64,000 nt of DNA, from the NCBI RefSeq assembly GCF_030684315.1, contig NC_081377.1, forward strand, positions 25,172,001-25,236,000. Reading direction: 5' to 3'. Below are positions 5,031 through 63,845 of this stretch, piece after piece; the stretch's first letter is position 1; each line of letters opens with the position of its first letter. The position numbers and the translations under genes are program-made. The notes below the pieces were generated by a model that saw nothing but the letters and a program-made list of their open reading frames with translations, was not told where the DNA came from and made no database searches. This DNA comes from Stegostoma tigrinum (Eukaryota).

Positions 5031-5161
5031 TTAATCATTTACCAGGAATGGAAGTTGTTTTTCATCACCACAATCTCAATATCTTCTGTTTTTCTAAGAT
5101 TTCATTGAAGGATATTTCTGCAAGTGTACTACTGGCTTCTGGCAAAAGCAAATCAGAGATG

Positions 5162-5856
5162 GCGAGGGGCTTAAAGCTGATGCGCATGCTCGCGAGGGGC
5201 TTAAAGCTGATGCGCATGCTCGCGAGGGGCTTAAAGCTGATGCGCATGCTCGCGAGGGGCTTAAAGCTGATGCGCATGCTCGCGAGGGGCTTAAAGCTGA
5301 TGCGCATGCTCGCGAGGGGCTTAAAGCTGATGCGCATGCTCGCGAGGGGCTTAAAGCTGATGCGCATGCTCGCGAGGGGCTTAAAGCTGATGCGCATGCT
5401 CGCGAGGGGCTTAAAGCTGATGCGCATGCTCGCGAGGGGCTTAAAGCTGATGCGCATGCTCGCGAGGGGCTTAAAGCTGATGCGCATGCTCGCGAGGGGC
5501 TTAAAGCTGATGCGCATGCTCGCGAGGGGCTTAAAGCTGATGCGCATGCTCGCGAGGGGCTTAAAGCTGATGCGCATGCTCGCGAGGGGCTTAAAGCTGA
5601 TGCGCATGCTCGCGAGGGGCTTAAAGCTGATGCGCATGCTCGCGAGGGGCTTAAAGCTGATGCGCATGCTCGCGAGGGGCTTAAAGCTGATGCGCATGCT
5701 CGCGAGGGGCTTAAAGCTGATGCGCATGCTCGCGAGGGGCTTAAAGCTGATGCGCATGCTCGCGAGGGGCTTAAAGCTGATGCGCATGCTCGCGAGGGGC
5801 TTAAAGCTGATGCGCATGCTCGCGAGGGGCTTAAAGCTGATGCGCATGCTCGCGAG
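5162..5856. repeat. Perfect 30-bp tandem array, 23 full units plus 5 bp
   Basis: Unit GCGAGGGGCTTAAAGCTGATGCGCATGCTC repeated without any variant from 5162 to 5851, then GCGAG. No spacers. Confidence 0.98.
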
Positions 5857-8131
5857 AAGTTGCAGAACGGGAAGTACAGAACTTGCAAAGCCTCAAATTA
5901 GTAAAAACCCAAAGAGATGCTACTGCAGGTTATTCAGATACAAATAAAATTGAAGAAAGCTGCAGCAGCTCCACCGAGTAACAGTCACGGTAAAAGCTGC
6001 AAGTAGGTGAAAGAACTACTAGGAGTGGCTCATTATTACAGAAAATACCATCTGTGACTTCATGAGAAATATTTTAAGAACATTATTGGAAGGATTCAGA
6101 AAGGGATGATGGGATGGTCAAATCCAGCCAACACAGAATAGTAGTACTGTGAGAAAAGCAAAGTACAATGGATGCTTGGAATCTATAATGAAACAAAGGG
6201 AAGTCATACTGAACCCAAACTGCTGTTGTTCTCTCCACAGAATCTGCCAGTTGAACTGCTACGCTCCTTTTGTGGTTAAGTATCATTAATGAACCCAGGT
6301 GGAGATATGACACTTGGCTTTAAAAAAATCAGAACTACACTTGCACACTGCATGGGTATATGCGTAGTCTGAGACAGGCAGTTTTTTGAACTATATGGGA
6401 GTCAAAGGTCTTGAAAAATATATACATAATTGAAAACAATATCAAATCAGCCTTGATCTTAATGGGTGGTGCAGCAGGCTTCAACAGCAGTATTGCCTTC
6501 TTCTATTTGTTTATAGCATGGAAAGACCCTCCCTTTTATTTGAATAAGTTATCTACACAAACAGTATGTTTGCAAGTTAACAGGAAGCTGTTTGAGACCG
6601 TTGTTTAACGACATTTCAAATTTACGTTCATTTGCTTCCAGCCCAGCAAAAACAAGCAACATTTTTAAAAAGTCTAGAAGACACCAGTGTTTAGAAGTTT
6701 AGCTCTTCTTCGAGGATTCAAAGAAGTGACCTCAGGAAGGGTTCAGTCTGTAAAACTTACAAGCCAGTACTTCAGTTAAAAATCAGTTTATCGGAAATGA
6801 AAAAGTTTATATTCTAGGAGTTGCAGAAAGTTCACGTCAGCAGATTTCAAAAAAGGATTCATGGGAAAAGTCCATGGTAAGCCAACTGTCAGCAACTAGT
6901 TACATACATGCCTATACAGCAGAGATAGCACTCTAATTTCCGTGGACTTCAGTCTGTGTAATGGATAGCAGAAACAGGGTGCAACTTTCGTTTGCAAGAT
7001 CATTCTAATTGTCTTCTGTATTAACACTGTTCAAATTTGTGAAATAAACTTCTAATTAAAAGCAGCCTCATTTGAATGTTTCAATGTTTAACCTTTACAT
7101 TAACTAAAATAATCAGGCCAAGTTTCATTTTGGGCTCTGGCTTGTCCAGTATTACTATCAGCTGAAATCATAACATTTGAGTCTAAACAGTCTTTCATAC
7201 CTCCCCAAGACATGCTTACTTCATTGTAAAGTACTGATGCAATTCAGTTATACAGATCGAAGCAATTTTTTTTAAACCTATGTAACAGCATTAGCTCTAA
7301 TTCTGCAGTAGACAGATGTAAGTTACAGTAGTGTAAGTAAATACTGTTCAATGGGGGCAGGAGACAGGGTAAGCAAAACCCTATTCTATAACCACAAACT
7401 ATGCATTTCCTTCCAGGTCAGAGATATACAAGTCTCTGAAGGAATAACTCAGACTGACGTGTTTTTTTTCTCCCCCAAAGAGAATGAGGTAGACAATGAG
7501 TTGGAAAGAGGTATTCTTATACCAATCTAGCAATAGATTGTTTTGGAGATGCGGTTGACCAGGACTAAATGCTATTGTATGATGCGGCCATGATTTTAAA
7601 ACTACCTTGTCTGCACTCTCTGCCATTCACCAGACCATTCCCTCTGACTGGCAGTTTACCAGCACTTACGCTTGAACCAACACACAGGCTCAATGAATAC
7701 CCTTTCTCTAAACAACATTCTTTAACAGATTTATCAATTCTTTCACTTGTATTTTGTGGTTATTTGCCCACCATAGTGAAGGATAATGTCTCCATGAGAT
7801 CTACTGCAAATGAATTTTGCTAGTATAGGCACCAAATATGCAAAGAGAATGCTGCTGTTTTAAAGCTCAAATTGATGACGTAAGCTTAGTCTGTAGCACT
7901 TCAGACGTGCTTTGAATTGCTGACAATATGCAAAAGGACGACTACTGATCATCTTGATTAAGACCAAAAGATACAAAACTCAAATGTGTGAAATAAAATC
8001 CAGCGAAGAATGAGGCAGACATAATGAACACTGATAAATGAAAATCATATCTGGAAGCTATATAATATTTTACATTAAAGTCTGTTACATTTATTACTTA
8101 CTTTTAGTCAGTCTTAGGAAATTCAGAGCTG

Positions 8132-8524
8132 GATGTGAGTTTGCTCGCTGAGCTGGAAGGTTCATTGTCAGACATTTCGTCACCATTCTAGGTAACATCA
8201 TCAGTGAGCCTCCGACGAGGTGCTGGTGTTATATCCCGCTTTCTATTTATCTGGTTAGGTTTCCTTGGGTTGGTGATGTCATTTCCTGTTCTTTTTCTCA
8301 GGGGATGGTAGATTGGCTCCAAATCAATGTGTTTGTTGATGGAGTTCCGGTTGGAATGCTTCTAGGAATTCTCGTGCATGTCTCTGTTTAGCTTGTCCTC
8401 GGAGGGATGTGTTGTCCCAAGCCAAACAGAGACACGCACAAGTACAACAACGAACCTTCCAGCTCAGCGAGCAATCTCACATCCAGAACCTCAACCTGAG
8501 CTACAAATCTTCTCAAAACTCACT
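8132..8524. mobile_element. Penelope-like element fragment (second family) with inverted termini, hammerhead core and TSD
   Basis: TSD AAATTCAGAGCTG at 8119-8131 and 8525-8537. The start (GGATGTGAGTTTGCTCGCTGAGCTGGAAGGTTC) is the inverse of ~8451-8485. Minus-strand hammerhead core CTGATGA-tGTTACC-tagaat-GGTGAC-GAAA-TGTC at 8171-8204. Confidence 0.75.
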
Positions 8525-9437: not shown

Positions 9438-9599
9438 AGAGATAACAAGGTGTACAGCTGGGTGAACACAGCAGGCCAAGCAGCAGAGGAGCAGGAAGGC
9501 TGACGTTTCAGGCCTGAGCCCGATGTTGCTTGGCCCGCTGTGTTCATCCAGCTATACACCTTGTTATCTCAGCTTCTCCAGCATCTGCAGTTCCTATTT
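9438..9599. mobile_element. Short Penelope-derived palindrome (tail on the right) with TSD
   Basis: GAGATAACAAGGTGTACAGCTGG...CCAGCTATACACCTTGTTATCTC fold-back plus tail CTCCAGCATCTGCAGTTCC. TSD TTGGATT(T/G)TAGGTT at 9424-9437 and 9600-9613. Confidence 0.8.
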
Positions 9600-14623: not shown

Positions 14624-14787
14624 CTTTCTGGTCAGTGCTTTCACTGCATCACTGTTAGTTTTCATTTCAAAAAGTCTCTCATTGTTGAGAGGACTGGCAG
14701 GCCTCAAACTGGGAGGCAAGCAGATGTTACTCTTTCCCAATAATTTATCAGCATTTGCCTTTGCTATTTCAAGTAGCTTCTGTTTAT
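14624..14787 (-). CDS. RSRP1: RSRP1 coding exon 4 (DKQKLLEIAKANADKLLGKSNICLPPSLR...)
   Basis: ttttgtttcag acceptor, AAG|gtgagt donor, 164 nt, phase 1/0. LLEIAKANA is the conserved RSRP motif shared by RSRP1 and SON. Confidence 0.93.
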
Positions 14788-15131
14788 CTGAAACAAAAAA
14801 AAATATTTTAGGCTGCAATTCTTCAAGCTTTTGAAACCTTAACTTGGCTTAAACACACTGCTGACAGGCAATAACAGTACTAAATCAACAACAGGTACAA
14901 TTCAAAAGAACGGAAAACAGCACTGACATTTCAGGTGGTATCCATAAATATTAGGAACATAAATAATCACACGAGAAACTAATGGCAGCAGAAATAATAT
15001 TGCTGGGAAGATTTACTTTCAGTGATGAATCAAAAATAAAGCACAATTTTGAATATCTTGGAGAAAACTATTCTGAAGATAAATTTCTTCAAATTAGATA
15101 CTAAATTAGAAGCTGAACAGATAAATACACA

Positions 15132-15337
15132 GAGATAATGGGAACTGCAGATGCTGGAGAATTCCAAGATAATAAAGTGTGAGGCTGGATGAGCGCAGCG
15201 GGCCGGGCGGCATCTCAGGAGCGCAGGGGCTGATGTTTCGGGCCTCTCTGAAGGGTCTAGGCCCGGGGTGTCGGCTTTTGTGCTCCTGGGATGCTGCTTG
15301 GCCTGCTGTGTTCATCCAGCCTCACATTTTATTATCT
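15132..15337. mobile_element. Penelope-derived palindrome with 14-bp TSD and clustered A>G changes
   Basis: TSD CAGATAAATACACA at 15118-15131 and 15338-15351. Tail + arm + short loop + inverted arm. 16 A>G differences relative to the sister copy at 31918-32275. Confidence 0.92.
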
Positions 15338-15473
15338 CAGATAAATACACATTTGCGTTTATTTGGCATTATAGCTGATGTATAACTCAACAAAGAAGCA
15401 GCAGGTAGATTTGATGAGGTTCTGCAAATTTGAGTTAACCTTAGAACAAGTAAAATTCTTGAAAGAGTAATAA

Positions 15474-16836
15474 GCAACAACCCTGGTAATTATAGACCAG
15501 TGAGCCTTTACCTGTTGGTAAAGTGTTGGAAAAGGTTATAAGAGATAGGATTTATAATCATCTAGAAAAGAATAATTTGATTAGGGATTGTCGGTTTTGT
15601 GAAGGGTAGGCCATGCCTCACAAACCTTATTGAGTTCTTTGAGAAGGTGACCACACAGGTAGATGAGAGTAAACCGGTTGATGTGGTGTATATGGATTTC
15701 AACAGGGCGTTCGATAAGGTTCCCCACAATAGGCTATTGTACAAAATGCAGAGGAATGGGATTGTGGGAGATATAGCAGTTTGGATCAGAAATTGGCTTG
15801 CTGAAAGAAGACAGAGGGTGGTAGTTGATGGGAAATGTTCATCCTGGAGACCAGTTATTAGTGGTGTACCGCAAGGGTCGGTGTTGGGTCCACTGCTGTT
15901 TGTCATTTGTATAAATGACCTGAACGAGGGCGTAGAAGGATGGGTTAGTAAATTTGCAGACGACACTAAGGTCGGTGGAGTTGTGGATAGTGACGAAGGA
16001 TGCTGTAGGTTACAGAGAGACACAGGTAAGCTGCAGACCTGGGCTGAGAGGTCGCAAATGGAGTTTAATGCAGACAAGTGTGAGGTGATGCACTTTAGTA
16101 GGAGTAACCAGAAGGCAAAGTACTGGGCTAATGGTAAGATTCTTGATAGTGTAGATGAGCAGAGAGATCTCAGTGCCCATGTATACAGATTCTTGAAAGT
16201 TGCCACTCAGGTTGACAGGGCTGGTAAGAAGGCATACAGTGTTTTAGCTTTTATTAATAGAGGGATTGAGTTCTGGAACCATGAGGTTATGCTGCAGCTG
16301 TACAAAACTCTGGTGCGGCCGCACTTGGAGTATTGCGTACAGTTCTGGTCAGCACATTATAAGAAGGATGTGGAAGCTTTGGAAAGGGTGCAGAGGAGAT
16401 TTACTAGGATGTTGCCTGGTATGGAGGGAAGGTCTTATGAGGAAAGGCTGAGGGACTTGAGGCTCTTTTCATTAGAGAGAAGGTTGAGAGGTGACTTAAT
16501 TGAAACATATAGAGCAATCAGAGGGTTAGATAGGGTGGATAGGGAGAGCCTTTTCCCTAGGATGCTGACGGTGAGCATGAGGGGGCCTAGCTTTAAATTG
16601 AAAGATGTAGGACAGATGTCAGAGGTAGTTTCTTTACTCAGAGTAGTAAGGGAATGGAACGCTTTGCCTGCAACGGTAGTAGATTCACCAACTTTAAGTA
16701 CATTTAAGTCGTCATTGGACAAGCGTATGGACGTACATGGAATAGTGTAGGTTAGATGGGCTTGAGATCGGTATGTCAGGTCAGCACAACATCGAGGGCC
16801 GAAGGGCCTGTACTGTGCTGTTATGTTCTATGTTAT
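15474..16836 (+). mobile_element. CR1 LINE 5'-truncated copy (RT to 3' tail)
   Basis: 383-aa ORF 15599-16750 with PQGSVLGPLLF, KFADD, LVRPHLEYCVQFW; 3' end TGTTATGTTCTATGTT. Confidence 0.92.
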
Positions 16837-17357
16837 AACTAGACCAACTGACTGCCCTGAAGATATTAAACACCTTCCTACGCTTGGCTAACACAACACA
16901 CAATGAGCAGGCAGAGGTCCCGCAACTAAGTACAATACTAGATCATGCAGATTACCTAGGGCTCAAAAACAGTTAGCAGAAATGCCACATGACCAAGTGT
17001 CATTTCTCCCAAATTCTGGAAGGCAGCAGAATAAACACTGTAGTGTTGTTTAGAAATTAACAAGCAGTACAGTGTTTTGCAACAGCCAATGTGCAATATT
17101 TGCGAATTTGCCAAACAAACCAATGCTGTTCCAACATCCACTGCCATTAGCTAATGGACTAATCTAATGCTATTTAACTTCAATAGTACCCTACAAATTC
17201 CGTTTGCACATTGTGAAATTTACAAATTTTTCTGGTTTCGTAGGATTTGTCAGTATTTTAGGAGACCCACTTTTTAAGAGATACTGCGACCAATTATATC
17301 CCCATTCTTCTGAAAACATGCTGTAAAGCTCTTATGCATGTTCAAAAAAGTAACTAC

Positions 17358-22650: not shown

Positions 22651-23929
22651 TGTCTAAAATGTTGCATTTGCTTAAAGTCCGAAACGAGAAAGACGCAGAA
22701 AATCCTGGAAGGATCTGGAAAGCCAATGCTTTGGCTGTAAATCCTGCTCCAAACCTGTGTTTTCTATTAACCTTTTGGTCAGACGGCCTCTTTCATTTCA
22801 AATAATGTTATTACACCATTTGTATTTTTAAAAACTTTATTTGAATTTTACACTGAAATCCAGGGAGTGATGTTTTAGGTTACTGATCTTCTATTAATAA
22901 AGTGCGAACAAAATAGGAGCAGAAGAAGCCTATTCGGCCCTTCAAGCCTGCCCTGAATAAAAAAGTGATCAAATAGTGTTTCGAATTCCAAATTCTCGTC
23001 TACTCTTGGTAACTGTCGATTCCATTGTTGAGTTGATCAACGATAACAAAGTGTCAAGCTGCATAAACATAGCAGGCCAAGCAGCATCTCAGGAGCACAA
23101 AGGCACACAAAGCAAAACACCCTCGTCCCTCTTCCGCAGCATTTGACAACAGCAATTTAACTGGTTGACCCAATACATAGCAGTAAACAACAATACTGCT
23201 CCCTTATTGTGGTGACATATACAATCAGGTAACATAAAAATGGATATATTATAGGTAAAGAGCGAGCATTAGCATTACATGACAGCACGCCCACCTTACC
23301 CAGAGGCAAATAGTTAGTGCCTACGCAGCACAACCATAAAGTCAAATTCCCAAAAATCCTGCCCTAAGTGAATTCTCACTCTCTACCAACAGTGACTATG
23401 ATTCCCCATCCTTTAATTAGGGTCATGTTTTTGTGTCTTTTTTTCGTGCATCTACACAAAATAAAGGCTCACGTGACAATAAACCTGATGAAAAAAACTC
23501 ATTCTCGCCATCGTGCACATTCCTATGTCGCTCATTTGTGCGTCCCTCAGTGCCTCAAATACATGTAAAATATATCAGAGATAATGGGAACTGCAGATGC
23601 TGGAGAATTCCACGATAATAAAATGTGAGGCTGGATGAACACAGCAGGCCAAGCAGCATCTCAGGACCACAAAAGCTGACATTTCGGGCCTAGACCCTTC
23701 ATCGGAGAGGGGGATGGGGAGAGGGAACTGGAATAAATAGGGAGAGAGGGGGAGGCGGACCGAAGATGGAGAGTAAAGAAGATAGGTGGAGAGAGTGTAA
23801 GTGGGGAGGTTGGGAGGGGATAGGTCGGTCCAGGGAAGACGGACAGGTCAAGGAGGTGGGATGAGGTTAGTAGGTAGCTGGGGGTGCGGCTTGGGGTGGG
23901 AGGAAGGGATGGGTGAGAGCAAGAACCGG

Positions 23930-26155
23930 TTAAGGAGGCAGAGACAGGTTGGACTCGTTTTGGGATGCAGTGGGTGGGGGGGAAGAGCTGGGCTGGTTGT
24001 GTGGTGTAGTGGGGGGAGGGGACGAACTGGGCTGGTTTAGGGATGCAGTAGGGGAAGGGGAGATTTTGAAACTGGTGAAGTCCACATTGATACCATATGG
24101 CTGCAGGGTTCCCAGGCGGAATATGAGTTGCTGTTCCTGCAACCTTCGGGTGGCATCATTGTGGCACTGCAGGAGGCCCATGATGGACATGTCATCTAGA
24201 GAATGGGAGGGGGAGTGGAAATGGTTTGCGACTGGGAGGTGCAGTTGTTTGTTGCGAACTGAGCGGAGGTGTTCTGCAAAGCGGTCTCCAAGCCTCCGCT
24301 TGGTTTCCCCAATGTAGAGGAAGCCGCACCGGGTACAGTGGATGCAGTATACCACATTGGCAGATGTGCAGGTGAACCTCTGCTTAATGTGGAATGTCAT
24401 CTTGGGGCCTGGGATGGGGGTGAGGGAGGAGGTGTGGGGACAGGTGTAGCATTTCCTGCGGTTGCAGGGGAAGGTGCCGGGTGTGGTGGGGTTGGAGAGC
24501 AGTGTGGAGCGAACAAGGGAGTCACGGAGAGAGTGGTCTCTCCGGAAAGCTGACAGGGGAGGGGATGGAAAAATGTCTTGGGTGGTGGGGTCGGATTGTA
24601 AATGGCGGAAGTGTCGGAGGATAATGCGTTGTATCCGGAGGTTGGTAGGGTGGTGTGTGAGAACGAGGGGGATCCTCTTGGGGCGGTTGTGGCGGGGGTG
24701 GGGTGTGAGGGATGTGTTGCGGGAAATACGGGAGACGCGGTCAAGGGCGTTCTCGATCACTGTGGGGGGAAAGTTGCGGTCCTTAAAGAACTTGGACATC
24801 TGGGATGTGCGGGAGTGGAATGTCTTATCGTGGGAGCAGATGCGGCGGAGGCGGAGGAATTGGGAATAGGGGATGGAATTTTTGCAGGAGGGTGGGTGGG
24901 AGGAGGTGTATTCTAGGTAGCTGTGGGAGTCGGTGGGCTTGAAATGGACATCAGTTACATGCTGGTTGCCTGAGATGGAGACTGAGAGGTCCAGGAAGGT
25001 GAGGGATGTGCTGGAGATGGCCCAGGTGAACTGAAGGTTGGGGTGGAAGGTGTTGGTGAAGTGGATGAACTGTTCGAGCTCCTCTGGGGAGCAAGAGGCG
25101 GCACCGATACAGTCATCAATGTACCGGAGGAAGAGGTGGGGTTTGGGGCCTGTGTAGGTGCGGAAGAGGGACTGTTCCACGTAACCTACAAAGAGGCAGG
25201 CATAGCTGGGGCCCATGCGGGTGCCCATGGCCACCCCCTTAGTCTGTAGGAAGTGGGAGGAGTCAAAAGAGAAGTTGTTGAGTGTGAGGACGAGTTCAGC
25301 TAGGCGGATGAGAGTGTCGGTGGAGGGGGACTGGTCGGGCCTGCGGGACAGGAAGAAGCGGAGGGCCTTGAGGCCATCTCCATGCGGAATGCAGGTGTAC
25401 AGGGACTGGACGTCCATGGTGAATATGAGGTGTTGGGGGCCAGGGAATTGGAAGTCCTGGAGGAGGTGGAGGGCGTGGGTGGTGTCACGGACGTAGGTGG
25501 GGAGTTCCTGGACCAAAGGGGAGAAAATGGAGTCCAGATAGGTGGAGATGAGTTCGGTGGGGCAGGAGCAGGCTGAGACGATGGGTCGACCAGGGCAGGC
25601 AGGTTTGTGGATTTTGGGAAGGAGATAGAAACGGGCCGTGCGGGGTTGGGGAACAATGGGGTTGGAGGCTGTGGGTGGGAGGTCCCCTGTGGTGATGAGG
25701 TCGTGAATGGTGTTGGAGATGATGGTTTTGTGCTCGGGTGTGGGGTCATGATTGAGGAGGCGGTAGGAGGTGATGTCGGAGAGTTGGCGTCTGGCCTCGG
25801 CGATGTAGAGGTCAGTGCGCCATACTACCACTGCGCCACCCTTGTCTGCGGGTTTGATGGTGAGGTTGGGGTTGGAGCGGAGGGCTGCCCGTTCTGCGGG
25901 GGAGAGGTTGGAGTGGGTGAGAGGGGTGGAGAGGTTGAGGCGGTTAATGTCTCGACGGCAGTTGGAGATGAAGAGGTCGAGGGAGGGTAGGAGGCCTGGG
26001 GGTGGTGTCCAGGAGGAGGACTTGTGTTGGAAGCGGGTGAAGGGGTCAGTGGAAGGAGGGTTGGGTTCCCGGTTGAAGAAGTAGGCATGGAGGCGAAGAC
26101 GGCGGAAAAACTGCTCTATATCCAACCGTGACTGGTATTCGTTGATGTGTGGTTG
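23930..26155 (-). CDS. Penelope RT + GIY-YIG endonuclease ORF, 5'-truncated, stop-free
   Basis: IKPADKGG, PGRPIVS, TMDVQSLYT, GVAMGTRMGP, LRYIDD (RT); CNRRKCYTC linker; NVVYCIHC..CGFLYIGETKRRLGDRFAEH (GIY-YIG). The first ~70 aa of the 812-aa track ORF are antisense read-through of the inverted arm. Confidence 0.93.
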   Translation of the reverse strand, partial: QPHINEYQSRLDIEQFFRRLRLHAYFFNREPNPPSTDPFTRFQHKSSSWTPPPGLLPSLDLFISNCRRDINRLNLSTPLTHSNLSPAERAALRSNPNLTIKPADKGGAVVVWRTDLYIAEARRQLSDITSYRLLNHDPTPEHKTIISNTIHDLITTGDLPPTASNPIVPQPRTARFYLLPKIHKPACPGRPIVSACSCPTELISTYLDSIFSPLVQELPTYVRDTTHALHLLQDFQFPGPQHLIFTMDVQSLYTCIPHGDGLKALRFFLSRRPDQSPSTDTLIRLAELVLTLNNFSFDSSHFLQTKGVAMGTRMGPSYACLFVGYVEQSLFRTYTGPKPHLFLRYIDDCIGAASCSPEELEQFIHFTNTFHPNLQFTWAISSTSLTFLDLSVSISGNQHVTDVHFKPTDSHSYLEYTSSHPPSCKNSIPYSQFLRLRRICSHDKTFHSRTSQMSKFFKDRNFPPTVIENALDRVSRISRNTSLTPHPRHNRPKRIPLVLTHHPTNLRIQRIILRHFRHLQSDPTTQDIFPSPPLSAFRRDHSLRDSLVRSTLLSNPTTPGTFPCNRRKCYTCPHTSSLTPIPGPKMTFHIKQRFTCTSANVVYCIHCTRCGFLYIGETKRRLGDRFAEHLRSVRNKQLHLPVANHFHSPSHSLDDMSIMGLLQCHNDATRRLQEQQLIFRLGTLQPYGINVDFTSFKISPSPTASLNQPSSSPPPTTPHNQPSSSPPPTASQNESNLSLPP

Positions 26156-27040
26156 TCCCGCACATCCCAGATGTCCAAGTTCTTTAAGGACCGCAACTTT
26201 CCCCCCACAGTGATCGAGAACGCCCTTGACCGCGTCTCCCGTATTTCCCGCAACACATCCCTCACACCCCACCCCCGCCACAACCGCCCCAAGAGGATCC
26301 CCCTCGTTCTCACACACCACCCTACCAACCTCCGGATACAACGCATTATCCTCCGACACTTCCGCCATTTACAATCCGACCCCACCACCCAAGACATTTT
26401 TCCATCCCCTCCCCTGTCAGCTTTCCGGAGAGACCACTCTCTCCGTGACTCCCTTGTTCGCTCCACACTGCCCTCCAACCCCACCACACCCGGCAACTTC
26501 CCCTGCAACCGCAGGAAATGCTACACCTGTCCCCACACCTCCTCCCTCACCCCCATCCCAGGCCCCAAGATGACATTCCACATTAAGCAGAGGTTCACCT
26601 GCACATCTGCCAATGTGGTATACTGCATCCACTGTACCCGGTGCGGCTTCCTCTACATTGGGGAAACCAAGCGGAGGCTTGGGGACCGCTTTGCAGAACA
26701 CCTCCGCTCAGTTCGCAACAAACAACTGCACCTCCCAGTCGCAAACCATTTCCACTCCCCCTCCCATTCTCTAGATGACATGTCCATCATGGGCCTCCTG
26801 CAGTGCCACAATGATGCCACCCGAAGGTTGCAGGAACAGCAACTCATATTCCGCCTGGGAACCCTGCAGCCATATGGTATCAATGTGGACTTCACCAGTT
26901 TCAAAATCTCCCCTTCCCCTACTGCATCCCTAAACCAGCCCAGTTCGTCCCCTCCCCCCACTACACCACACAACCAGCCCAGCTCTTCCCCCCCACCCAC
27001 TGCATCCCAAAACGAGTCCAACCTGTCTCTGCCTCCTTAA
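26156..27040 (+). pseudogene. Inverted partial copy of the Penelope ORF (thumb/linker + GIY-YIG)
   Basis: The 297-aa track ORF matches the C-terminus of the minus-strand ORF except LLS/LPS and GTF/GNF. Confidence 0.85.
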
Positions 27041-27259
27041 CCGGTTCTTCCTCTCACCCATCCCTTCCTCCCACCCCAAGCCGCACCCCCAGCTACCTAC
27101 TAACCTCATCCCACCTCCTTGACCTGTCTGTCTTCCCTGGACCGACCTATCCCCTCCCTACCTCCCCACCTACACTCTCTCCACCTATCTTCTTTACTCT
27201 CCATCTTCGGTCCGCCTCCCCCTCTCTCCCTATTTATTCCAATTCCCTCTCCCCATCTC

Positions 27260-27297
27260 CCTCTCTGATGAAGGGTCTAGGCCCGAAACGTCAGCTT
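27260..27297 (+). ncRNA. Minimal hammerhead ribozyme motif in the Penelope terminal repeat
   Basis: CTGATGA (27265-27271), stem II aGGG-tctagg-CCC, then GAAAC-GTC (27285-27292). The palindromic ACGT stem III is typical of dimer-forming PLE hammerheads. Confidence 0.75.
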
Positions 27298-27983
27298 TTA
27301 TGCTCCTGAGATGCTGCTTGGCCTGCTGTGTTCATCCAGCCTCACATTTTATTATCTTACATGTAAAATATAGTCGTGTATTTGTAAGAGATGTCCTTAG
27401 GATTTTTGGATAGAGTCAAACTCAAAATATTTTTGTTTCCTTGATATGCTACTGCACAACACCAAACTGCATTTGTGACGATGTCTGAATGCAAAGGTTT
27501 TGTTTTTATGTAAAAAATGTATTTATGAAATAATTTTTGAACATTATGTCCCATATCATTAAGAACAGGGAATGCTGGGGGCAACCTGCAGATGTGTGCA
27601 GAGAGACCAAGGAAAAAATGCAACATTTAACGTTTCGAGTGTAATATGTGACGTCTTCAGAATGAGCATCCGAGCTATTTTAGTGCCTCCCGTGAGTATT
27701 TTTCAGTGGAGCCGCTCAGGATGGATTGGACTGGCAGAGATGTCCCTGTCCCCTTCCTCATCGCTGACACCTCCCAAAGCCCATTACCCGGGATCAGTCC
27801 TCCAGGAGCTGCAGTACCACTGTCAGAGAGAGAGGGGTCGCTGACGGCCGGCTTGTACCACCACCACACCCCCCGATCCCGTCCACTCCCTTCCTCCCAC
27901 CCCGGGGGCTCGGTTTCTGCCGCTGTTGGTTCGAGCCTCCAGGGGATCCTTTGTACTAGTCGCTTGTGGCCACACAGTCTCTA

Positions 27984-31388: not shown

Positions 31389-31592
31389 AGAACTTGCAAG
31401 AATTGCAGATGCTGGAGTCAGAATCAACACAGTGTGGAGATGGACGAATGCAGCAGGTCAGGCAGCATCAGGCAGCAGGAAAGTCGACGTTTCATGTTGG
31501 GAATCTTCACCAGAACAGAGTTCCAGCCTGAAACATCGACTTTCCAGTTCCTCTGATGCTGCCTGATCTGCTGTGCTCCTCCAGCTCCACAC
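31389..31592. mobile_element. Older Penelope-derived palindrome with 15-bp TSD
   Basis: TSD CATGTAATTCTGCAT at 31374-31388 and 31593-31607; tail GAATTGCAGATGCTGGAG plus imperfect inverted arms; inserted in an older LINE remnant (~30360-31760). Confidence 0.8.
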
Positions 31593-31917
31593 CATGTAAT
31601 TCTGCATTGTAGCTCCAACAACTTGTCATCTCATCTGTGGATATATCTCTGCTGCATGGATTGCAGCAATTCAAGAAGAAAGCTAACCACCACCTTCTCA
31701 AGGGCAAAAAGTGACAGGGAATAGGTCTGACCAGTGATCCCCACATTCTGCAAAAGAATAAAATAAATTACAGTTCAAAAGAGTGAATTCCCTTTGTATC
31801 CCAATTGTTTATAGTTGTTTACAAAGAATCATATTCACAGTGCGTTAAACTTTGATCCAGAAGCAGTGCTGGAAGGAAAATTTGTAATCTTATAAAAACA
31901 TGCCCAAGATATCTGTA

Positions 31918-32275
31918 GAGAGATAATGGGAACTGCAGATGCTGGAGATTCCAAGATAATAAAATGTGAGGCTGGATGAACACAGCAGGCCAAGCAGCAT
32001 CTCAGGAGCACAAAAGCTGACGTTTCGGGCCTAGACCCTTCATCAGAGAGGGGGATGGGGGGAGGGAACTGGAATAAATAGGGAGAGAGGGGGAGGCGGA
32101 CCGAAGATGGAGAGTGACTCTCCATCTTCGGTCCGCCTCCCCCTCTCTCCCTATTTATTCCAGTTCCCTCCCCCCATCCCCCTCTCTGATGAAGGGTCTA
32201 GGCCCGAAACGTCAGCTTTTGTGCTCCTGAGATGCTGCTTGGCCTGCTGTGTTCATCCAGCCTCACATTTTATTA
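31918..32275. mobile_element. Perfect Penelope-derived palindrome (159-bp arms, 1-nt loop, 39-nt tail) with 15-bp TSD
   Basis: TSD CCCAAGATATCTGTA at 31903-31917 and 32276-32290. Arms 31957-32115 and 32117-32275, centred on G32116. Intact hammerhead cores at 32186-32213 (+) and 32019-32046 (-). Confidence 0.95.
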
Positions 32276-33247
32276 CCCAAGATATCTGTAATTCTTTTTA
32301 ACAATATTTGAAAGGGACTTTTAAGAGTTTGCATCAACTGTAAAGGGATCAGTTGTAATTTTCATGAACAACAAGGAATACTGACCCATATGACCCAGTG
32401 ACCCTTAACTTGGAAACAGTCCCAACAAAAAGCAAGTTAAGAAAGAACCCTTGCAGCTGGCAGACAGCTGCAGCCACAAAGGGGAGCTAAAAGCAGAGAA
32501 GCTGTGGATGGGTGAAGTTGAAGGCTCAAATGCAAACACAAAGAATAAACAGAGACGGAAAGAGGAGCAGAGAATTCTTGTGTGGGGAAGAGCAAATCAC
32601 TCTCAGGAAGTGATCAGTTTCTTTGTTGGCATAAAAGAAAGGGAAGATATACTGTCTGAGTAGTTAAAATCTGAGAAGTGATGTGAATAGCTTAGAGACC
32701 AGTAAAGAGTTGGCTGATTTTCAAAAGTTGTAATATCAGGAACTGAGATGTTGTTTTTACTTTATTTTATTATTTAAAATGAAATCTACCATGTTAGTTG
32801 AAGTTTCACATGCTCATTAATTCAATTTTAATTTACATTATTTAGGATTCATATTCAAAGAAAACATTGCAAAGAGTGAACTTTTGCAGGAAATTTCTTC
32901 ATTTTGGGGATGTTCAATTACTTTTGGTTACTTTGATTTATAGTTCCTCCATGTGGATTGCAACAAGAAGAATTGTTAATTTTAGGGTTGAGGGAAAGAA
33001 TTTTAATTGGAAGACATTTTTTGAATTCTTAATTTCATCATTAAAATGTAAATGAACTGTGCAATATAATTTGAAGCATTTCTGGAAAACTCTGAACTGT
33101 TTAGGTGGATTATTATTTACTTGGATTAATTTCCTATTGACTGTCTTTAGCAACGCGCACTTAAAGCTGAAACATGTATAAGAGTTCTGAAATTCAGTCA
33201 TGCACTCATTCATTAGCTTGGTAATAATGCATAATAACTCCTTCCAG

Positions 33248-37146: not shown

Positions 37147-39115
37147 ATAGAACATAGAACATTACAGCACAGTACAGGCCCTTCAGCCCTCGATGTTGTG
37201 CCGACCTGTCATACCAACCTCAAGCCCATCTAACCTACACTATTCCATGTACGTCCATATGCTTGTCCAATGACGACTTAAATGTACCTAAAGTTGGTGA
37301 ATCTACTACCGTTGCAGGCAAAGCGTTTCATTCCCTTACTACTCTCTGAGTAAAGAAACTACCTCTGACATCTGTCCTATAACTTTCACCCCTCAATTTA
37401 AAACTGTGCCCCTTGTGCTCGCCGTCACCATCCTAGGAAAAAGGCTCTCCCTATCCACCCTATCTAACTCTCAGATTATTTTATATGTTTCAATTAAGTC
37501 ACCTCTCAACCTTCTCTCTAATGAAAACAGCCTCAAGTCCCTCAGCCTTTCCTCGTAAGACCTTCCCTCCATACCAGGCAACATCCGAGTCCTCTGCACC
37601 CTCTCCAAAGCTTCCACATCCTTTTTATAATGCGGTGACCAGAACTGTACACAATACTCCAAGTGTGGCCGCACCAGAGTTTTGTACAGCTTCACTATAA
37701 CCTCTTGGTTCCGGAACTCAATCCCTCTATTAATGAAAGCTAAAACACTGTATGCCTTCTTAACAGCCCTGTCAACCTGGGTGGCAACTTTCAAGGATCT
37801 GTGTACATGGACACCGAGAACTCTCTGCTCATCTACACTACCAAGAATCTTACCATTAGCCCTGTACTTTGCCTTCCGGTTACTCCTACCAAAGTGCATC
37901 ACCTCACACTTGTCTGCATGAAACTCCATTTGCCACCTCTCAGGCCAGCTCTGCAGTTTATCTATGTCTCTCTGCAACCTACAGCATCCTTCGTCACTAT
38001 CCACAACTCCACTGACCTTAGTGTCGTCTGCAAATTTACTAACCCATCCTTCTACGCCCTCATCCAGGTCATTTATAAAAATGACAAACAGCAGTGGACC
38101 CAACACCAACCCTTGCGGTACACCACTAGTAACTGGTCTCCAGGATGAACATTTCCCATCAACTACCACCCTCTGTCTTCTTTCAGCAAGCCAATTTCCG
38201 ATCCAAACTGCTATATCTCCCACAATTCCATTCCTCCGCATTGTGTACAATAGCCTATTGTGGGGAACCTTATCGAGCGCCTTGCTGAAATCCATACACA
38301 CCACATCAACCAGTTTACTCTCATCTACCTGTTTGGTCACCTTCTCAAAGAACTCAATAAGGTTTGTGAGGCACGACCTTCCCTTCACAAAACCGTGCTG
38401 ACTATCCCCAATCAATTTATTCTTTTCTAGATGATTATAAATCCTATCCCTTATAACCTTTTCCAACACTTTACCAACAACTGAGGTAAGGCTCACTGGT
38501 CTATAATTACTAGGGTTGTCTCTACTCCCCTTCTTGAACAGGGGAACCACATTTGCTATCCTCCAGTCATCTGGCACTATTCCTGTAGACAATGACGAGT
38601 TAAAGATCAATGCCAAACGCTCGGCAATCTCCTCCCTGGCTTCCCAAAGGATCCGAGGCTAAATCTCATCCGGCCCAGGGGACTTATTTATCTTCACCTT
38701 CTGAAGGATTTCTAATACCTCTTCCGTGCGAACCTCAATCCCACCTAGTCTTGTAGCCTGTATCTCAGTATTCTCCTTGACAACATTGTCGTTTTCTAGA
38801 GTGAATACTGTTGAGAAATATTCATTTAGCGCTTCCCCTATCTCATCTGACTCCACACACAACTTACCACTACTATCCTCGATTGGGCCTAATCTTTCGT
38901 CATTCTTTTATTCCTTAAATACCTATAGAAAGCCTTAGGGTTTACCCTGATCCTATTCGCCAACAAATTCTCATGTCTCCTCCTGGCTCTTCTGAGCTCT
39001 CTCTTTAGGTCTTTCCTGGCTACCTCGTAGCCCTCAAGTGCCCTAACTGAGCCTTCACATCTCATCTTAACATAAGCCTTCTTCTTCCTCTTGACCAGAG
39101 ATTCCACCTCCTTCC
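37147..39115 (-). mobile_element. CR1 LINE 5'-truncated copy
   Basis: 381-aa RT ORF 37471-38616 plus upstream ORFs 38659-39137; (ATAGAAC)n tail at ~37147; same subfamily as 15474-16836. Confidence 0.93.
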
Positions 39116-41039: not shown

Positions 41040-41292
41040 TGACCAACCCCCACCCGCACTTCCTACCTACACTCATCTTTACGAGCTTCATCCTCACCTC
41101 CTTAACCAGTCCGTCCTCTCTCCCACCTATCTGCTCCAGTATCCACCTTCTATCACCTTCCCGACCCCATTATTTCAGAGTCCCCTTCCCCTCTCTCATT
41201 TCTGAAGAAGGGTCCAGAACCGAAACATCAGCTTTCCCCTCTAATGCTGCCTGGCCTGCTGTATTCCTCCAGCTCCACACCTTGGTATCTAC
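41040..41292 (+). mobile_element. Decayed Penelope terminal repeat fragment
   Basis: C-rich tract followed by CTGAAGAAGGGTCCAGAACCGAAACATCAGC...GCTGCCTGGCCTGCTGT, similar to 27100-27357. Confidence 0.65.
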
Positions 41293-42155
41293 TTAAAACC
41301 TTTTTTTTCAACTCTGTCTTTTTTCATTCAAGCTGTTCAAAGTGCCTAACCTTTTTTCATAATTACATGAAACTAATTGCTATGTCTATTATGAGATAGT
41401 AAGAACTGCCGATGCTGGAGTCAGAGATAAAACATTGTGTTATATCTGCTATTTCTACTATGACTTGCTCTTTCTGTATTAATTTAATTTTATTTGCAGA
41501 ATTTTTGTTATTCTATAAGTTTGCTCCATGTCAGATTTTCATCCACATGGCCTTTCCTGTATTTTTACACGTTATTTGCACACTTTTACCTGTATCTCTC
41601 TAAGTATTTTATTACTTATGCCTCTAGCAGTTTATATCTCATTTAATCCTACTTTCCATATGGTATATTTGTTGATTCAATCTCTTTCCCAATCTAGCGA
41701 GAATGACCATTCAGTACCTTATCAGATACAACAGAAAAGTTACAACTCATTTTTTTTTACAAATGTTGACTGACAGGATATGTATTTCCAGGATTTTGCA
41801 TTTGTGATCATAATTTTATCTCTATAAATGTCAGTGTTTTCTGTCTCTCCTGCTCTATTTGCTTTTCTCATCTCTGCCCAGGCCTGTTTTTATCTCTCCA
41901 GGCCCTAAGTAGTCCAGACTTTTCCCCCTTGCTCTATGTGTGGCCTGCAAGTAAGAAGTTGGGGGGGAAAGGGGACATGCTATAAAATTCACTGGACCCT
42001 TGGACATCCTGAAATGAAATTCCTATGTCCAGTTGGCTGAGTATTCATACTTTTCAATATACTACATAAGCCTTTTTTTTCCCCCTGTATAGTGTTAACA
42101 ATCACAATGAAACCATACTTCATATCAGATTGCATTTATTTCTGCTTCTTCACAG

Positions 42156-44716: not shown

Positions 44717-45202
44717 TTATCTTCCCGAGCGGACTAACCCAGGTCTGGAAGGCACCATCATCGGCCGGTGAGGCCCCATCATAGGCCCCGACATCATAGG
44801 CATCGGGCCACCGATAGGCGGTCTCATCCCTGGGCCTACCAGCATCATGCCAGGAGGCGCGGGGCCCATCATCGGCATCATGGGCGGCCCTCCCATTGGG
44901 GGGCCCGGCAGGATGGCAGGCCGCGGCGGTGGAACACCAACATTGCCGTGTGGCGGCGGGATGGCGGCTCCGCCGGGAGGAGGACCAGCCGGCGCCGGAA
45001 ACGGTGCGGTGGGCGGGATCTTCCCTTGGCGGAAAGCAGCAGTGGTCTTATCGATGAGGCTCTGGGCCTGTTCTTCCATCCATTTCTGGTAATAGTCCTT
45101 GACGTTTTCCTTGTGTTTGCGGCCCTCGCAGTGAGTCTTGCGAACAGACGGCGAATCGTGTGTTAAATAAGTATCACAGTAATCGCAATAATACTTCGGC
45201 AT
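44717..45202 (-). CDS. SNRPC: U1 small nuclear ribonucleoprotein C (U1-C), single-exon CDS
   Basis: 161 aa: [54 protein letters not shown] (U1-type zinc finger) plus a Pro/Met/Gly-rich tail; no introns or stops; gacATG context; AATAAA (minus) at 44033-44038 and 43933-43938. Confidence 0.97.
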
Positions 45203-45204
45203 GT

Positions 45205-45600
45205 CGTCGGTACAGCAGCGAGGAGGTGCGCATGCGCCGGACCTTCAACTGCCCTTTATATACTTACCGCGTGCGTCACTGCGCTGAAACCGTCAGGGAT
45301 CACGTGACTATTCGACGCTAAGGGGCATGCGCATCTCCAGCTGTCGTCTGAGGGTGTAACCAGTATTGTTTGTGATCGTCTTTATCGGTGGCCGAGGAAG
45401 TATGCATTCTTTTCATAGATGGGGGATTTTTTAAAAAGAGTTTAATTTGTGCGTTTGTTTTAATTCGCAGTCTGGCAGCAGTCATACTCGTCGTCGTCGT
45501 TGTTTTAGATAGAGATGCCCTGCGGCTTAACCGGAGTATTAAAGGGGTCGCTGCAGCTGCGTTTGGAGCATGCGCACATCCGTTTCTTCTTGCACTGGGA
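45205..45600. promoter_or_regulatory. Bidirectional CpG-island promoter shared by SNRPC and TMEM50A
   Basis: NRF1-type TGCGCATGCGC at 45227-45237, GCATGCGCA at ~45325 and ~45568; TATATAAAG (minus) at ~45254-45262; CRE-like TGCGTCA at 45272-45278; E-box TCACGTGA at 45300-45307. Confidence 0.8.
45340..45399 (+). other. TMEM50A: Putative non-coding exon 1 of TMEM50A
   Basis: GAGGAA|gtatgc donor at the edge of the CpG island. The first coding exon begins with an acceptor 1 nt before the ATG, so an upstream exon must exist. TSS uncertain. Confidence 0.5.
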
Positions 45601-48864: not shown

Positions 48865-49562
48865 GTTTTGTAGAGCATCTGCACTCTGTACATGACAAAT
48901 GACAACATCTTCCTGTCACTGGCCCTTTTAACTCCCCATTCCTCTCCCTGGGTGACATGTCCATCCTGGGCCGCCTCTGGTGCCACAGTGATACCCCATG
49001 CAAACCGGAGAAGCGACACCTCATTTCACCTCGGGAGCCTACAGCCCAATGGTCTAAACATAGAATTCACCAATTTTAAAATTTCCCCACCCTTGGCCTC
49101 GTCCCATGTTCAATTCTCCCTCTCATCCCCATCTCCTTGACCTGACACCACCTGCACATCCCCACATATCCGAGCAAGCCCAACTACCCCCTACCTGCAT
49201 CCAATCTCTCACCACCCCACCCTTACTTACCCCACCCTTACCCCTCCTCCCCCCCACCTCCTCAACCTGACACAACCTGTTCATCTACTCTCCCACCTGT
49301 CTGCCCCACTCATCCCATTGACCAATCCCCACCACTCACTACCTGTATTTTCTTATCATCATCCCACCCACCTACCCCAGGCCTACCTCTCCTCCCTGTA
49401 TTTATTTCCCAGCTCCCTTCCCCCTCCCTATTTCTGAAGAAGGGACCCGACCCAAAACATCAGCTTCCCTGTTTCTCTGAAGCTGCCTGGCCGGCTGTGT
49501 TCCTCCAGCTCCACATTGTATTGTTTCTGACTACAGCGTCTGCAGTTCTTGCTGTCTCCTAC
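48865..49562 (+). mobile_element. Decayed Penelope 3' fragment (GIY-YIG C-terminus, terminal repeat and tail)
   Basis: FHLGSLQPNGLNIEFTNFKISP resembles FRLGTLQPYGINVDFTSFKISP; followed by a C-rich tract, CTGAAGAAGGGACCCGACCC and the TCTGCAGTTC tail. Confidence 0.8.
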
Positions 49563-53005: not shown

Positions 53006-53813
53006 CCTTTAGAGAGAGGTGGGCGCCATGGGAAACAGTGTTTTATTCCACCACCCCTCCCCCCCCGCCCCTAAAACACCATTTTAATTTAGTCACTTCC
53101 TCCAAAATTTGATTTGCCCTGCCTGTAGTGGGCTTTGGTTGTAAATACTCAGTTGGCAACACGGGTGTTTTTACTGGTGGTGGTTATTAGTTTCTTTTTT
53201 TTAAAGAAAGCAAAAAGAAAAACAACCGTGATGATTTTGATGGTGGGGTGGTGGGGCAGTTGCTTAGTTGTGCATGATAATGCTTCTGGATAAAAAAAAA
53301 AGCTTGGATTCTATAATCACATTTGTGCCTGATTGTTCTTGGAGAGGGAGCATGCGGTGTGTCAATAATGTCAATGTCTTTGGAGAGAGGTGGGCACCTC
53401 AGGTGGTACAGTGTCTTATTTCGTGCTCCAGCTCCATTTTAATTAAGTCCCTTCCTGGTCTCCCTACTTGCCCTTCACTTTTGATGCTTTGCATCATCCG
53501 TAATGGGCTTTAAATGCAAATACTTAGTTGACTATAAGGGTGATTACCAGTGGTGGTGAAAAGGGAGAAAAAGTGGAAAGGTCACAGTGATTTTGGTGGT
53601 CAGAAAATTGCTCAGTTGTGTATGTTAACACTTCTGGGTAGAGAAGGAAAAGCTTGGTAAGTGTTCCTCCATTGGAGCCGGGATGCACGTGTCCACTGCA
53701 CCTTAAGTATGTAATAACAGGTCTGAAGAGGTTGATTAGAAAATATAAGGATGTGGAGCTAATAACAAAAAAAGGGTGAGAGTTTGATCAAGTGTCACCA
53801 ACTGAAATAAATG

Positions 53814-53903
53814 ATGAAGGGTCTAGGCCCGAAGCGTCAGCTTTTGTGCTCCTGAGATGCTGCTTGGCCTGCTGTGTTCATCCAGCCTCACATTTTGCTG
53901 TCT
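53814..53903 (+). mobile_element. Single-arm Penelope terminal fragment with 11-bp TSD
   Basis: TSD TGAAATAAATG at 53803-53813 and 53904-53914; the insert corresponds to 27268-27357. Confidence 0.85.
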
Positions 53904-54039
53904 TGAAATAAATGTGAATTCAGTTTTTAATAGAAAAAAGGCTTCAGGTCTGTAATGTTTGGAGATATGAGTTCAGATCCCACCAGTGCAGTAGTGAAAT
54001 TTCAAATCTAGTTTTAAAAAGAAAAGCTTGGTTTAGACA

Positions 54040-63635: not shown

Positions 63636-63845
63636 TCAGAGATAGTAGGAACTGCAGATGCTGGAGAATCTGAGATAACAAGGTGTAGAGCTGGATGAAC
63701 ACAGCAGGCCAAGCAGCATCAGAGGAGCAGGAGGGCTGACATTTTGGGCCTAGACCCTCCTTCAGCCTGAAACGTCAGCCTTCCTGCTCCTCTGATGAAG
63801 CTTGACCTGCTGTGTTCATCCAGCTCTATGCCTTGTTATGTCAGA
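63636..63845. mobile_element. Penelope-derived palindrome, older subfamily
   Basis: Tail TCAGAGATAGTAGGAACTGCAGATGCTGGAGAA, arm GATAACAAGGTGTAGAGCTGG..., inverted arm ...CCAGCTCTATGCCTTGTTATGTC; TSD not clear. Confidence 0.8.

What the first reader, a model, noticed from the sequence alone, without database searches (positions are those of the whole stretch)
31918..32275. Family of MITE-like ribozyme-bearing palindromes derived from the Penelope terminus
Seen: a perfect 159-bp-arm palindrome with 1-nt loop, 39-nt tail, 15-bp TSD and an intact minimal hammerhead on each strand, in MGST3 intron 1. The same design with fixed outer ends and variable fold-back point recurs at 9438-9599, 15132-15337, 31389-31592 and 63636-63845, and at large scale at 23575-27357: six in 64 kb, TSDs 14-15 bp where visible. 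Known: PLE hammerheads are minimal and thought to cleave as dimers; long perfect palindromes are unstable in DNA and are ADAR/Dicer substrates as RNA. Inference: a non-autonomous hairpin-retroelement system dependent on the Neptune-type RT/EN, in which fold-back would mask the ribozyme in host pre-mRNA on either strand.
Basis: partly seen in the sequence, partly recalled or inferred. Interest (0 to 1): 0.7.

Follow-up and report, generated by a model that had tools for sequence, protein, structure and literature searches.

The report
Twin-primed Penelope hairpin, not a MITE
This perfect DNA hairpin in a gene's intron is one of over 25,000 back-to-back stubs of a known kind of jumping gene (a Penelope-like retroelement); each stub was likely built on the spot by copying one RNA from both cut DNA ends, and the stubs' ends likely record where that RNA starts and where its ribozyme cuts it.

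Summary
In detail: 159-bp perfect arms, 1-nt loop, 39-nt tail, 15-bp TSD, a minimal hammerhead on each strand, and five sister structures. It is the published insertion shape of endonuclease-bearing Penelope-like elements (inverted 5'-truncated copy plus tail), not a self-propagating MITE. This junction occurs once in 3.2 Gb against 49,704 arm matches. The one frequent junction counted and oriented (1,157 copies) carries its loop letter in both orientations, 12:16. 124 of 130 pairs have exactly one tail, and the tailless arm is often the longer, which excludes simple fold-back and favours two primings on one RNA. Arm ends peak at the predicted hammerhead cut (about 3,650 versus 100-580 at neighbouring bases) and at a predicted capped start (18 of 18 followed by C). 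The sister at 15132-15337 is an ADAR-type edited hairpin carried in a CR1-ended retrocopy of an unedited locus on C24. The scan noted these patterns before on other DNA, including this genome.

The parts
31903..31917 (+). left target-site duplication, 15 bp
   Evidence: identical to 32276-32290
31918..31956 (-). 39-nt tail; the stretch between the outer and the inner start of copying (inferred from PMC11167929)
31957..32115 (-). tailed arm: 3' end of the element up to family position 197
32116..32116 (.). one untemplated base at the join
   Evidence: the two other loci turning here have other loop letters
32117..32275 (+). tailless arm, family positions 197 to 39
32276..32290 (+). right target-site duplication
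32186..32213 (+). minimal type I hammerhead core; predicted cut after 32213 (family position 100 = 32214)
   Evidence: end peak
32019..32046 (-). mirror hammerhead core; predicted cut between 32019 and 32018
32152..32182 (+). predicted promoter: TATA-like box 32152-32159, predicted start 32182 (family position 132); mirror copy at 32080-32050 on the minus strand
   Evidence: sequence; end peak and extra C; untested
23575..27357 (-). large sister: 5'-truncated element (RT and GIY-YIG, tailed end at 23575) plus inverted 1,201-nt tailless arm; TSD 15 bp
9438..9599 (.). older inverted stub, TSD 14 bp with one mismatch
15132..15337 (+). inverted stub with 16 A-to-G changes on the plus strand, confined to the stem
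14953..16836 (+). retrocopy of G000:C24 (locus L330): unique flank, the hairpin, and a truncated CR1-type LINE ending in its simple-repeat tail
   Evidence: 98.2% over 1,892 columns
31389..31592 (.). old-subfamily inverted stub, TSD 15 bp
63636..63845 (.). older inverted stub, no TSD found

Best explanation
The 358-base unit is a single, ORF-less insertion of a Penelope-like retroelement whose two mirror halves were likely made at insertion, when both cut ends of the target DNA primed copying of what was probably one RNA molecule. Shown: head-to-head arms, one tail, a 15-bp TSD, a unique junction, and the same layout from about 100 to several thousand bases genome-wide. Inferred: (1) the GIY-YIG nuclease cuts both strands about 13-16 bases apart; (2) one 3' end primes at the outer start (tailed arm), the other about 37 bases further in (tailless arm); (3) both cDNAs run towards the 5' end of the RNA and stop at a break (here position 197 on both arms), at the capped start (132) or at the ribozyme cut (100); (4) the two cDNA ends are joined bluntly, with a few added bases, or by microhomology. 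The hairpin is a by-product; in host transcripts it would be double-stranded and open to ADAR, and it can travel again only as a passenger, as 15132-15337 did.
For: Junction unique: 3 loci turn at this position, each with a different loop, against 49,704 exact 45-mer arm matches and 25,548 short inverted copies. One tail per pair in 124 of 130 pairs, 52 of 54 in unselected DNA. Tailless arm longer in 32, tailed arm longer in 22, within 5 nt in 39 of 93 young pairs, so neither arm is simply a DNA copy of the other. Among pairs with both arms over 140 nt, 6 of 29 end within 5 nt of each other; shuffles give 0.52 and 0 of 20,000 reach 6. Sister arms share non-reference letters at 1.44% of sites against 0.48% for non-sisters, and 37 of 98 doubleton alleles sit in sister arms. 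The 129/129 junction (1,157 copies) has a central A:A mismatch resolved 12 T: 16 A relative to the tail in 28 loci of 91-99.5% identity, each with its own TSD. TSD 13-16 bp in 77 of 104 one-tail pairs. In vitro a PLE protein cuts and extends both strands from two adjacent starts that bracket the tail and is predicted to be a dimer (PMC11167929).
Against: In PMC11167929 the start site did not differ between the two strands, and no pairing rule was shown. Shared variants between arms could come from later arm-to-arm conversion or from two RNAs of one source locus. 74 of 137 insertions in 864 kb were called single arms (an overcount, since weak partners are missed), so twin priming is not obligatory. 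6 of 130 pairs broke the one-tail rule, some probably mis-paired neighbours. Only one recurrent junction was oriented; a rare unit-propagating subfamily is not excluded. Arkhipova et al. 2013 explain junction palindromes by self-priming. The L004-L088 loci come from the first 5 Mb of one contig and were chosen by exact motifs.
Confidence: 0.75

Rival explanations
1. Non-autonomous hairpin element: the whole palindrome is transcribed and re-inserted as a unit by the PLE protein.
For: Junctions do recur: 1,157 exact copies of one; 9 of 82 arm-end pairs seen more than once. An edited hairpin was written into DNA.
Against: Focal junction unique. The recurrent junction is found in both orientations at all ages and sits at a microhomology next to the main end peak. 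Mirror-image junctions exist. The edited hairpin kept its parent's flanks and TSD and ends in a CR1 tail.
Confidence: 0.05
2. Fold-back: one cDNA snaps back on itself and is copied to the inner site, where the nuclease resolves it (close to the self-priming idea in PMC3846280).
For: Perfect symmetry here; 39 of 93 pairs end within 5 nt; arms share variants.
Against: The tailless arm exceeds the tailed arm in 32 of 93 pairs, by up to 2.5 kb, which a copy of the first cDNA cannot do; a 1-nt loop is hard to form; the A:A mismatch is resolved both ways. It could still explain part of the symmetric class.
Confidence: 0.1
3. Two primings on two different RNA molecules.
For: Explains unequal arms; 439 differing sites against 296 shared non-reference sites between sister arms, although age alone produces differences.
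Against: Does not predict the one-tail rule or the excess of long arms that end together (6 of 29).
Confidence: 0.1
4. For the end peak at position 100 only: a polymerase stall at an RNA stem, or the 4-nt self-complementary AGCT word, rather than ribozyme cleavage.
For: The predicted fold has a stem whose 3' foot is at position 99; 12 of 30 sampled rows are the symmetric join, which is ambiguous among 98/98, 99/99 and 100/100; the hammerhead has only 2 bp of helix I; no RNA ends at the cut were found for the anole element.
Against: Rows without microhomology still peak at 100: about 1,510 (95% range 855-2,243) against 335, 542, 351 and 104 at 98, 99, 101 and 102. An equal 4-nt word five bases away gives 31 symmetric joins against roughly 830 (22 pairs in the first 100 rows, hand count), though that word holds a CpG. 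Head-to-tail units restart at 100-101 (L310-L312).
Confidence: 0.3

Closest known systems
Insertion unit of endonuclease-bearing Penelope-like elements: pLTR, inverted 5'-truncated copy, 30-40-bp tail (Pen2a_Av, PMC3846280; Fig. 2 legend of PMC8557442; D. virilis Penelope, PMC2377424; passages read)
   Same: Head-to-head copies, tail on one end, TSD, palindromes at the inverted junction, partial tandems, promoter inside the pLTR.
   Different: Here both arms are under 200 bases and ORF-less; the passages read call the tail optional and give no one-tail rule, arm-end map or cap signature.
PAc, Poseidon of Anolis carolinensis (PMC11167929; parts 1-2 of 4 read)
   Same: Two RT starts bracketing the tail; both strands cut and extended; hammerhead in the pLTR.
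   Different: This family has the CX4CX2C linker (Neptune/Nematis type); PAc work is in vitro, found no RNA ends at the cut and does not treat inverted inserts.
Minimal hammerheads of metazoan PLEs (PMC4209133; parts 1-2 of 4 read)
   Same: Extra base before helix II, G10.1-C11.1 pair, palindromic 15.2-16.2, no loop III; pairs on opposite strands 100-700 bp apart were already noted.
   Different: Helix I is 2 bp, like the D. virilis variant rather than the usual 4-5 bp; that paper had no in vivo evidence of cleavage.
L1 twin priming, cap-derived G and ADAR-edited retrocopies (PMC11702581; passages read)
   Same: Second priming from the other DNA end with discrete 12-18-bp TSDs; extra G at full-length 5' ends; clustered edits confined to inverted repeats in retrocopied RNA.
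   Different: L1 inverts an upstream piece with little duplication; here both arms repeat the 3' end from two fixed starts. The edited copy is in a genome assembly and has an unedited parent.
MITEs and non-LTR retrozymes (PMC8969392 passages; bioRxiv 10.64898/2026.07.22.740005 part 1 of 5)
   Same: Short, non-coding, numerous; terminal inverted repeats (MITE) or a type I hammerhead of PLE origin (retrozyme).
   Different: No fixed internal structure, unequal ends and 13-16-bp TSDs of variable length (not a MITE); inverted rather than tandem hammerhead units (not a retrozyme).

Membership tests
EN+ Penelope-like element | parent ORF with RT and C-terminal GIY-YIG nuclease | tested here: met
   RVT_1 E 1.4e-5, below the curated cut-off; GIY-YIG E 7.6e-5, above it; the arms match the DNA 3' of this ORF at 97%
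EN+ Penelope-like element | pLTR repeated in front of full-length ORFs | tested here: met
   L026, L121, L124, L128, L130, L131 and others
EN+ Penelope-like element | inverted 5'-truncated copy and 30-40-bp tail on one end | tested here: met
EN+ Penelope-like element | hammerhead in the pLTR | tested here: met
   motif scan; Rfam did not detect it
Neptune/Nematis type | CX2-5CxxC linker before GIY-YIG and CCHH motif (PMC8557442) | tested here: met
   C-x4-C-x2-C and C-x2-C plus two His in the translation
Neptune clade | placement on an RT tree | not tested
   no reference set fetched
MITE / unit-propagating non-autonomous element | many copies with one fixed internal structure | tested here: not met
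MITE / unit-propagating non-autonomous element | equal terminal inverted repeats and fixed short TSD | tested here: not met
   one end carries the tail; TSD 8-19 bp, mostly 13-16
Non-LTR retrozyme | tandem units each with a complete type I hammerhead | tested here: not met
   arms are inverted; the few tandems seen start at the cut and lack the core
Active hammerhead ribozyme | self-cleavage | not testable with these tools
   indirect only: end peak at the predicted cut
ADAR-edited retrocopy (15132-15337) | one-strand A-to-G changes limited to the stem, with an unedited parent | tested here: met
   16 of 42 stem A against 3 of 535 outside, Fisher p 2e-17; parent L330

The most novel reading that the evidence does not exclude
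The genome's Penelope stubs are a fossil record of the element's replication complex: a protein dimer copies one capped RNA from two starts, one for each cut strand; the RNA begins 4 bases before the hammerhead; and this hammerhead, with only a 2-bp helix I, does cut in the germline, leaving thousands of copies that begin exactly at the cut. The resulting hairpins are ADAR targets that CR1 LINEs can write back into DNA with the edits.
Probability: 0.55. Interest if true: 0.7.

Novelty: new member of a known kind. Interest (0 to 1): 0.5.

Why it matters
The locus itself is ordinary. Its family matters because how Penelope-like elements make inverted ends and tails, and whether their minimal hammerheads cut in vivo, are open questions in the papers read (PMC11167929, PMC8557442, PMC4209133). 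The census gives base-exact predictions that an existing in vitro system can test: one tail per inverted insert, both arms from one RNA, a capped start at 132, a cut at 100. It also warns annotators that such hairpins look like MITEs or miRNA precursors but are built anew at each insertion. The edited sister with its unedited parent is a clean example of RNA editing fixed in an animal genome.

Tried and rejected
Rfam: no hammerhead; the miRNA matches are generic long-hairpin hits below gathering scores. Unit propagation of the focal copy: rejected (exact matches with loops of 0-6 only, so mutated copies would be missed). Assembly fold-back artefact: unlikely given the TSD and flank-bridging contigs; contigs cannot span the hairpin. 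RNA evidence: the run search gave no raw RNA reads of this organism, so editing, expression and RNA ends at the MGST3 intron were not tested; small-share runs were not used. Laying runs on 14700-15560 bridged both flanks in X3 and the left in X1 but listed no contig across the edited stretch, and runs X9 and X10 did not cover the flanks: no verdict. Raw counts at positions 98-102 are inflated by CpG decay and indels, so they were corrected from 15-30 loci each (one search crashed half-way). BLAST ends at 129 in old subfamilies partly reflect divergence from the reference and were left out (young = 90% or more). L122, L123 and L134 (5' end at 100) look like one duplicated locus and count once; L124 and L127 likewise. 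A-to-G excess over all arms (2,342 against 858 T-to-C) is mostly subfamily difference and was not taken as editing. Loci L341-L343 were fetched and not analysed. Lünse et al. 2017 is not held and is known only through PMC6765202 (passages). Seven literature searches showed no paper reporting the one-tail rule, the cap signature or ends at the cut; most were read as listings only, subscription papers, Repbase and Dfam notes were not searched, and no supplements were opened (Fig. S2 of PMC11167929 maps genomic ends and may bear on this).

Full report
Observation. The unit is as described. Arms 31957-32115 and 32117-32275 are 159 nt and fully complementary around one base; a 39-nt tail precedes the left arm, and a 15-bp TSD flanks the whole. 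Each strand has a minimal hammerhead core. By inspection it fits the minimal form of PMC4209133 (extra base before helix II, no loop III, palindromic centre) with a helix I of 2 bp. The five sisters exist, four with a TSD of 14-15 bp. The host exon downstream hits MAPEG; the names MGST3, CR1 and shark are recalled or taken from earlier notes, not from a call. The window is G000:C28:25172001-25236000 of a 3.2-Gb genome.

Parent element. 23575-27357 holds a 5'-truncated ORF with RT and GIY-YIG and the Cys linker that marks Neptune and Nematis elements, followed by the same 3' end and tail, plus an inverted 1,201-nt arm. Full-length copies elsewhere are preceded by a pLTR, and often by an inverted arm. 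This is the published layout: an inverted 5'-truncated copy and a 30-40-bp tail at one end (PMC8557442; PMC3846280). Positions below count from the tail end of the family reference (window position = 31918 + p on the left arm).

Does the hairpin move as a unit? Three loci in the genome turn at this position, with three different loops, while a 45-mer of the arm has 49,704 exact matches and 25,548 short inverted copies match two 16-mers. Among 93 young pairs there are 82 distinct arm-end pairs, including mirror images. The junction seen most often in the first 50 loci has 1,157 exact copies; relative to the tail its central letter is T in 12 and A in 16 of 28 classifiable loci (p 0.57), at 91-99.5% identity. 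That is what annealing of two cDNA ends over a five-base word with an A:A mismatch gives; a propagating unit would keep one letter. In 864 kb of unselected DNA, 137 insertions with a 3' end were found: 51 inverted, 74 single, 12 other.

How the mirror is made. 124 of 130 inverted pairs have exactly one tail (52 of 54 in unselected DNA). The tailless arm is longer in 32, the tailed arm in 22, and they end within 5 nt in 39 of 93 young pairs. Long arms end together far more often than chance (6 of 29; shuffled mean 0.52). Sister arms share non-reference letters three times as often as non-sisters (all); the focal copy has the same single departure from the reference on both arms. In vitro, the anole PLE protein cuts and extends both strands from two starts that bracket the tail. 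The simplest reading, inferred and untested, is a dimer on one RNA, one subunit per start and per cut strand. Later conversion between arms could mimic the shared letters but not the one-tail rule.

Where arms stop. In young pairs the short arms pile up at 126-134 and fall off after 133; joints in public contigs fall at the same place. All 18 arms that end at 132 are followed by C in the cDNA strand, against 10 of 35 at 129, 131, 133 and 134, where the reference also continues with G. Most of the 18 could owe the C to a partner arm that begins with C; about three are clean, one of them a single arm with one C before its TSD. An extra G marks capped 5' ends in L1 inserts (PMC11702581). Related subfamilies have an initiator-like A at the same place (consensus recalled), and a TATA-like box lies 30 bases upstream (seen after a lead from e1-8654894). 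So 132 is the predicted start; the focal arms reach 197 and were therefore copied from a longer RNA. A second peak lies at 100, the base after the predicted cut: raw counts 629, 775, 3,776, 1,004 and 781 at 98-102; true junctions 10 of 15, 15 of 20, 29 of 30, 10 of 20 and 2 of 15, giving about 419, 581, 3,650, 502 and 104; without microhomology 335, 542, 1,510, 351 and 104. A control join at a neighbouring 4-base palindrome occurs 31 times. A stall at the predicted stem ending at 99 remains a rival; I put cleavage at about 0.65.

Editing. The sister 15132-15337 has 16 A-to-G changes on the plus strand of both arms and none in tail or TSD. A search with its flanks found the parent on C24: 14953-16836 matches it at 98.2%, the parent hairpin is unedited (99% to the reference), and the match ends at the simple-repeat tail of a CR1-type LINE. 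16 of 42 stem adenines changed against 3 of 535 outside (p 2e-17); G is rare 5' of edited sites, 2 of 16 against 8 of 26. So a hairpin RNA was likely edited by ADAR and retrocopied by a CR1 enzyme as a passenger. L292 holds a second such hairpin (parent not sought). Public contigs did not confirm the edited stretch directly. L1-made edited retrocopies are known from cultured cells.

Comparison and novelty. Membership in EN+ PLEs is met on every feature tested; MITE and retrozyme membership fail. The shape is known. The one-tail rule, the cap signature and the peak at the cut were not found in seven searches, within the limits stated under Tried and rejected. The scan's own notes report the same patterns in at least 15 genomes, this one included; they are unchecked and are not counted as support. 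My readings on twin priming, the cut, the cap and the editing were formed before the matching look-ups; the TATA-like box and PMC11702581 came from the notes.

Verdict. A real, ordinary member of a very large class of PLE insertion products; not a hairpin-retroelement system. Interest 0.5, carried by the family-level clues to PLE replication and by the edited retrocopy with a traceable parent.

Noticed in passing
window 14953-16836; L330 (G000:C24:20837945-20841507): Retrocopy ending in a CR1-type tail that carries an A-to-G hyper-edited Penelope hairpin; unedited parent on C24. It sits in an intron of a minus-strand gene for an Arg/Ser-rich protein (RSRP1-like, name recalled).
   Followed up: yes
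L292:500-690: Old-subfamily hairpin with many one-strand A-to-G changes in both arms; parent not sought.
   Followed up: partly
L310, L311, L312, L174: Head-to-tail repeats of the unit from the predicted cut (100-101) to the tail end or inner start, as if the RT jumped from a cut 5' end to a new start.
   Followed up: partly
L176, L177, L074, L073: Junction pieces taken from the 5' UTR and ORF start just behind the tail, suggesting the templates were leaders of full-length transcripts.
   Followed up: partly
L124, L127, L122, L123, L134: Full-length elements whose 5' pLTR starts at 130 or exactly at 100; two independent loci at most.
   Followed up: partly
window 44717-45244 (-): Intron-less open frame with a U1 zinc finger (Pfam E 7e-23): likely a U1-C retrocopy.
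   Followed up: no
window 5094-5897: Tandem array with a 27-bp unit, open in several frames.
   Followed up: no
window 15513-16837 and 37148-38479: Two CR1-type fragments in inverted orientation, 93-95% alike, 20 kb apart.
   Followed up: no
window 8173-8204 (-), 27631-27660 (-), 41116-41439, 49381-49548, 23042-23104, 53812-53909: Further hammerhead-like motifs and stubs of other or older Penelope families; the one at 27631-27660 lies just upstream of the host gene's first coding exon.
   Followed up: partly
L007, L017, L074, L088: Symmetric long arms (216/216, 633/629, 155/155, 742/740) with 10-150 inserted bases at the join, some themselves palindromic or element-derived.
   Followed up: no
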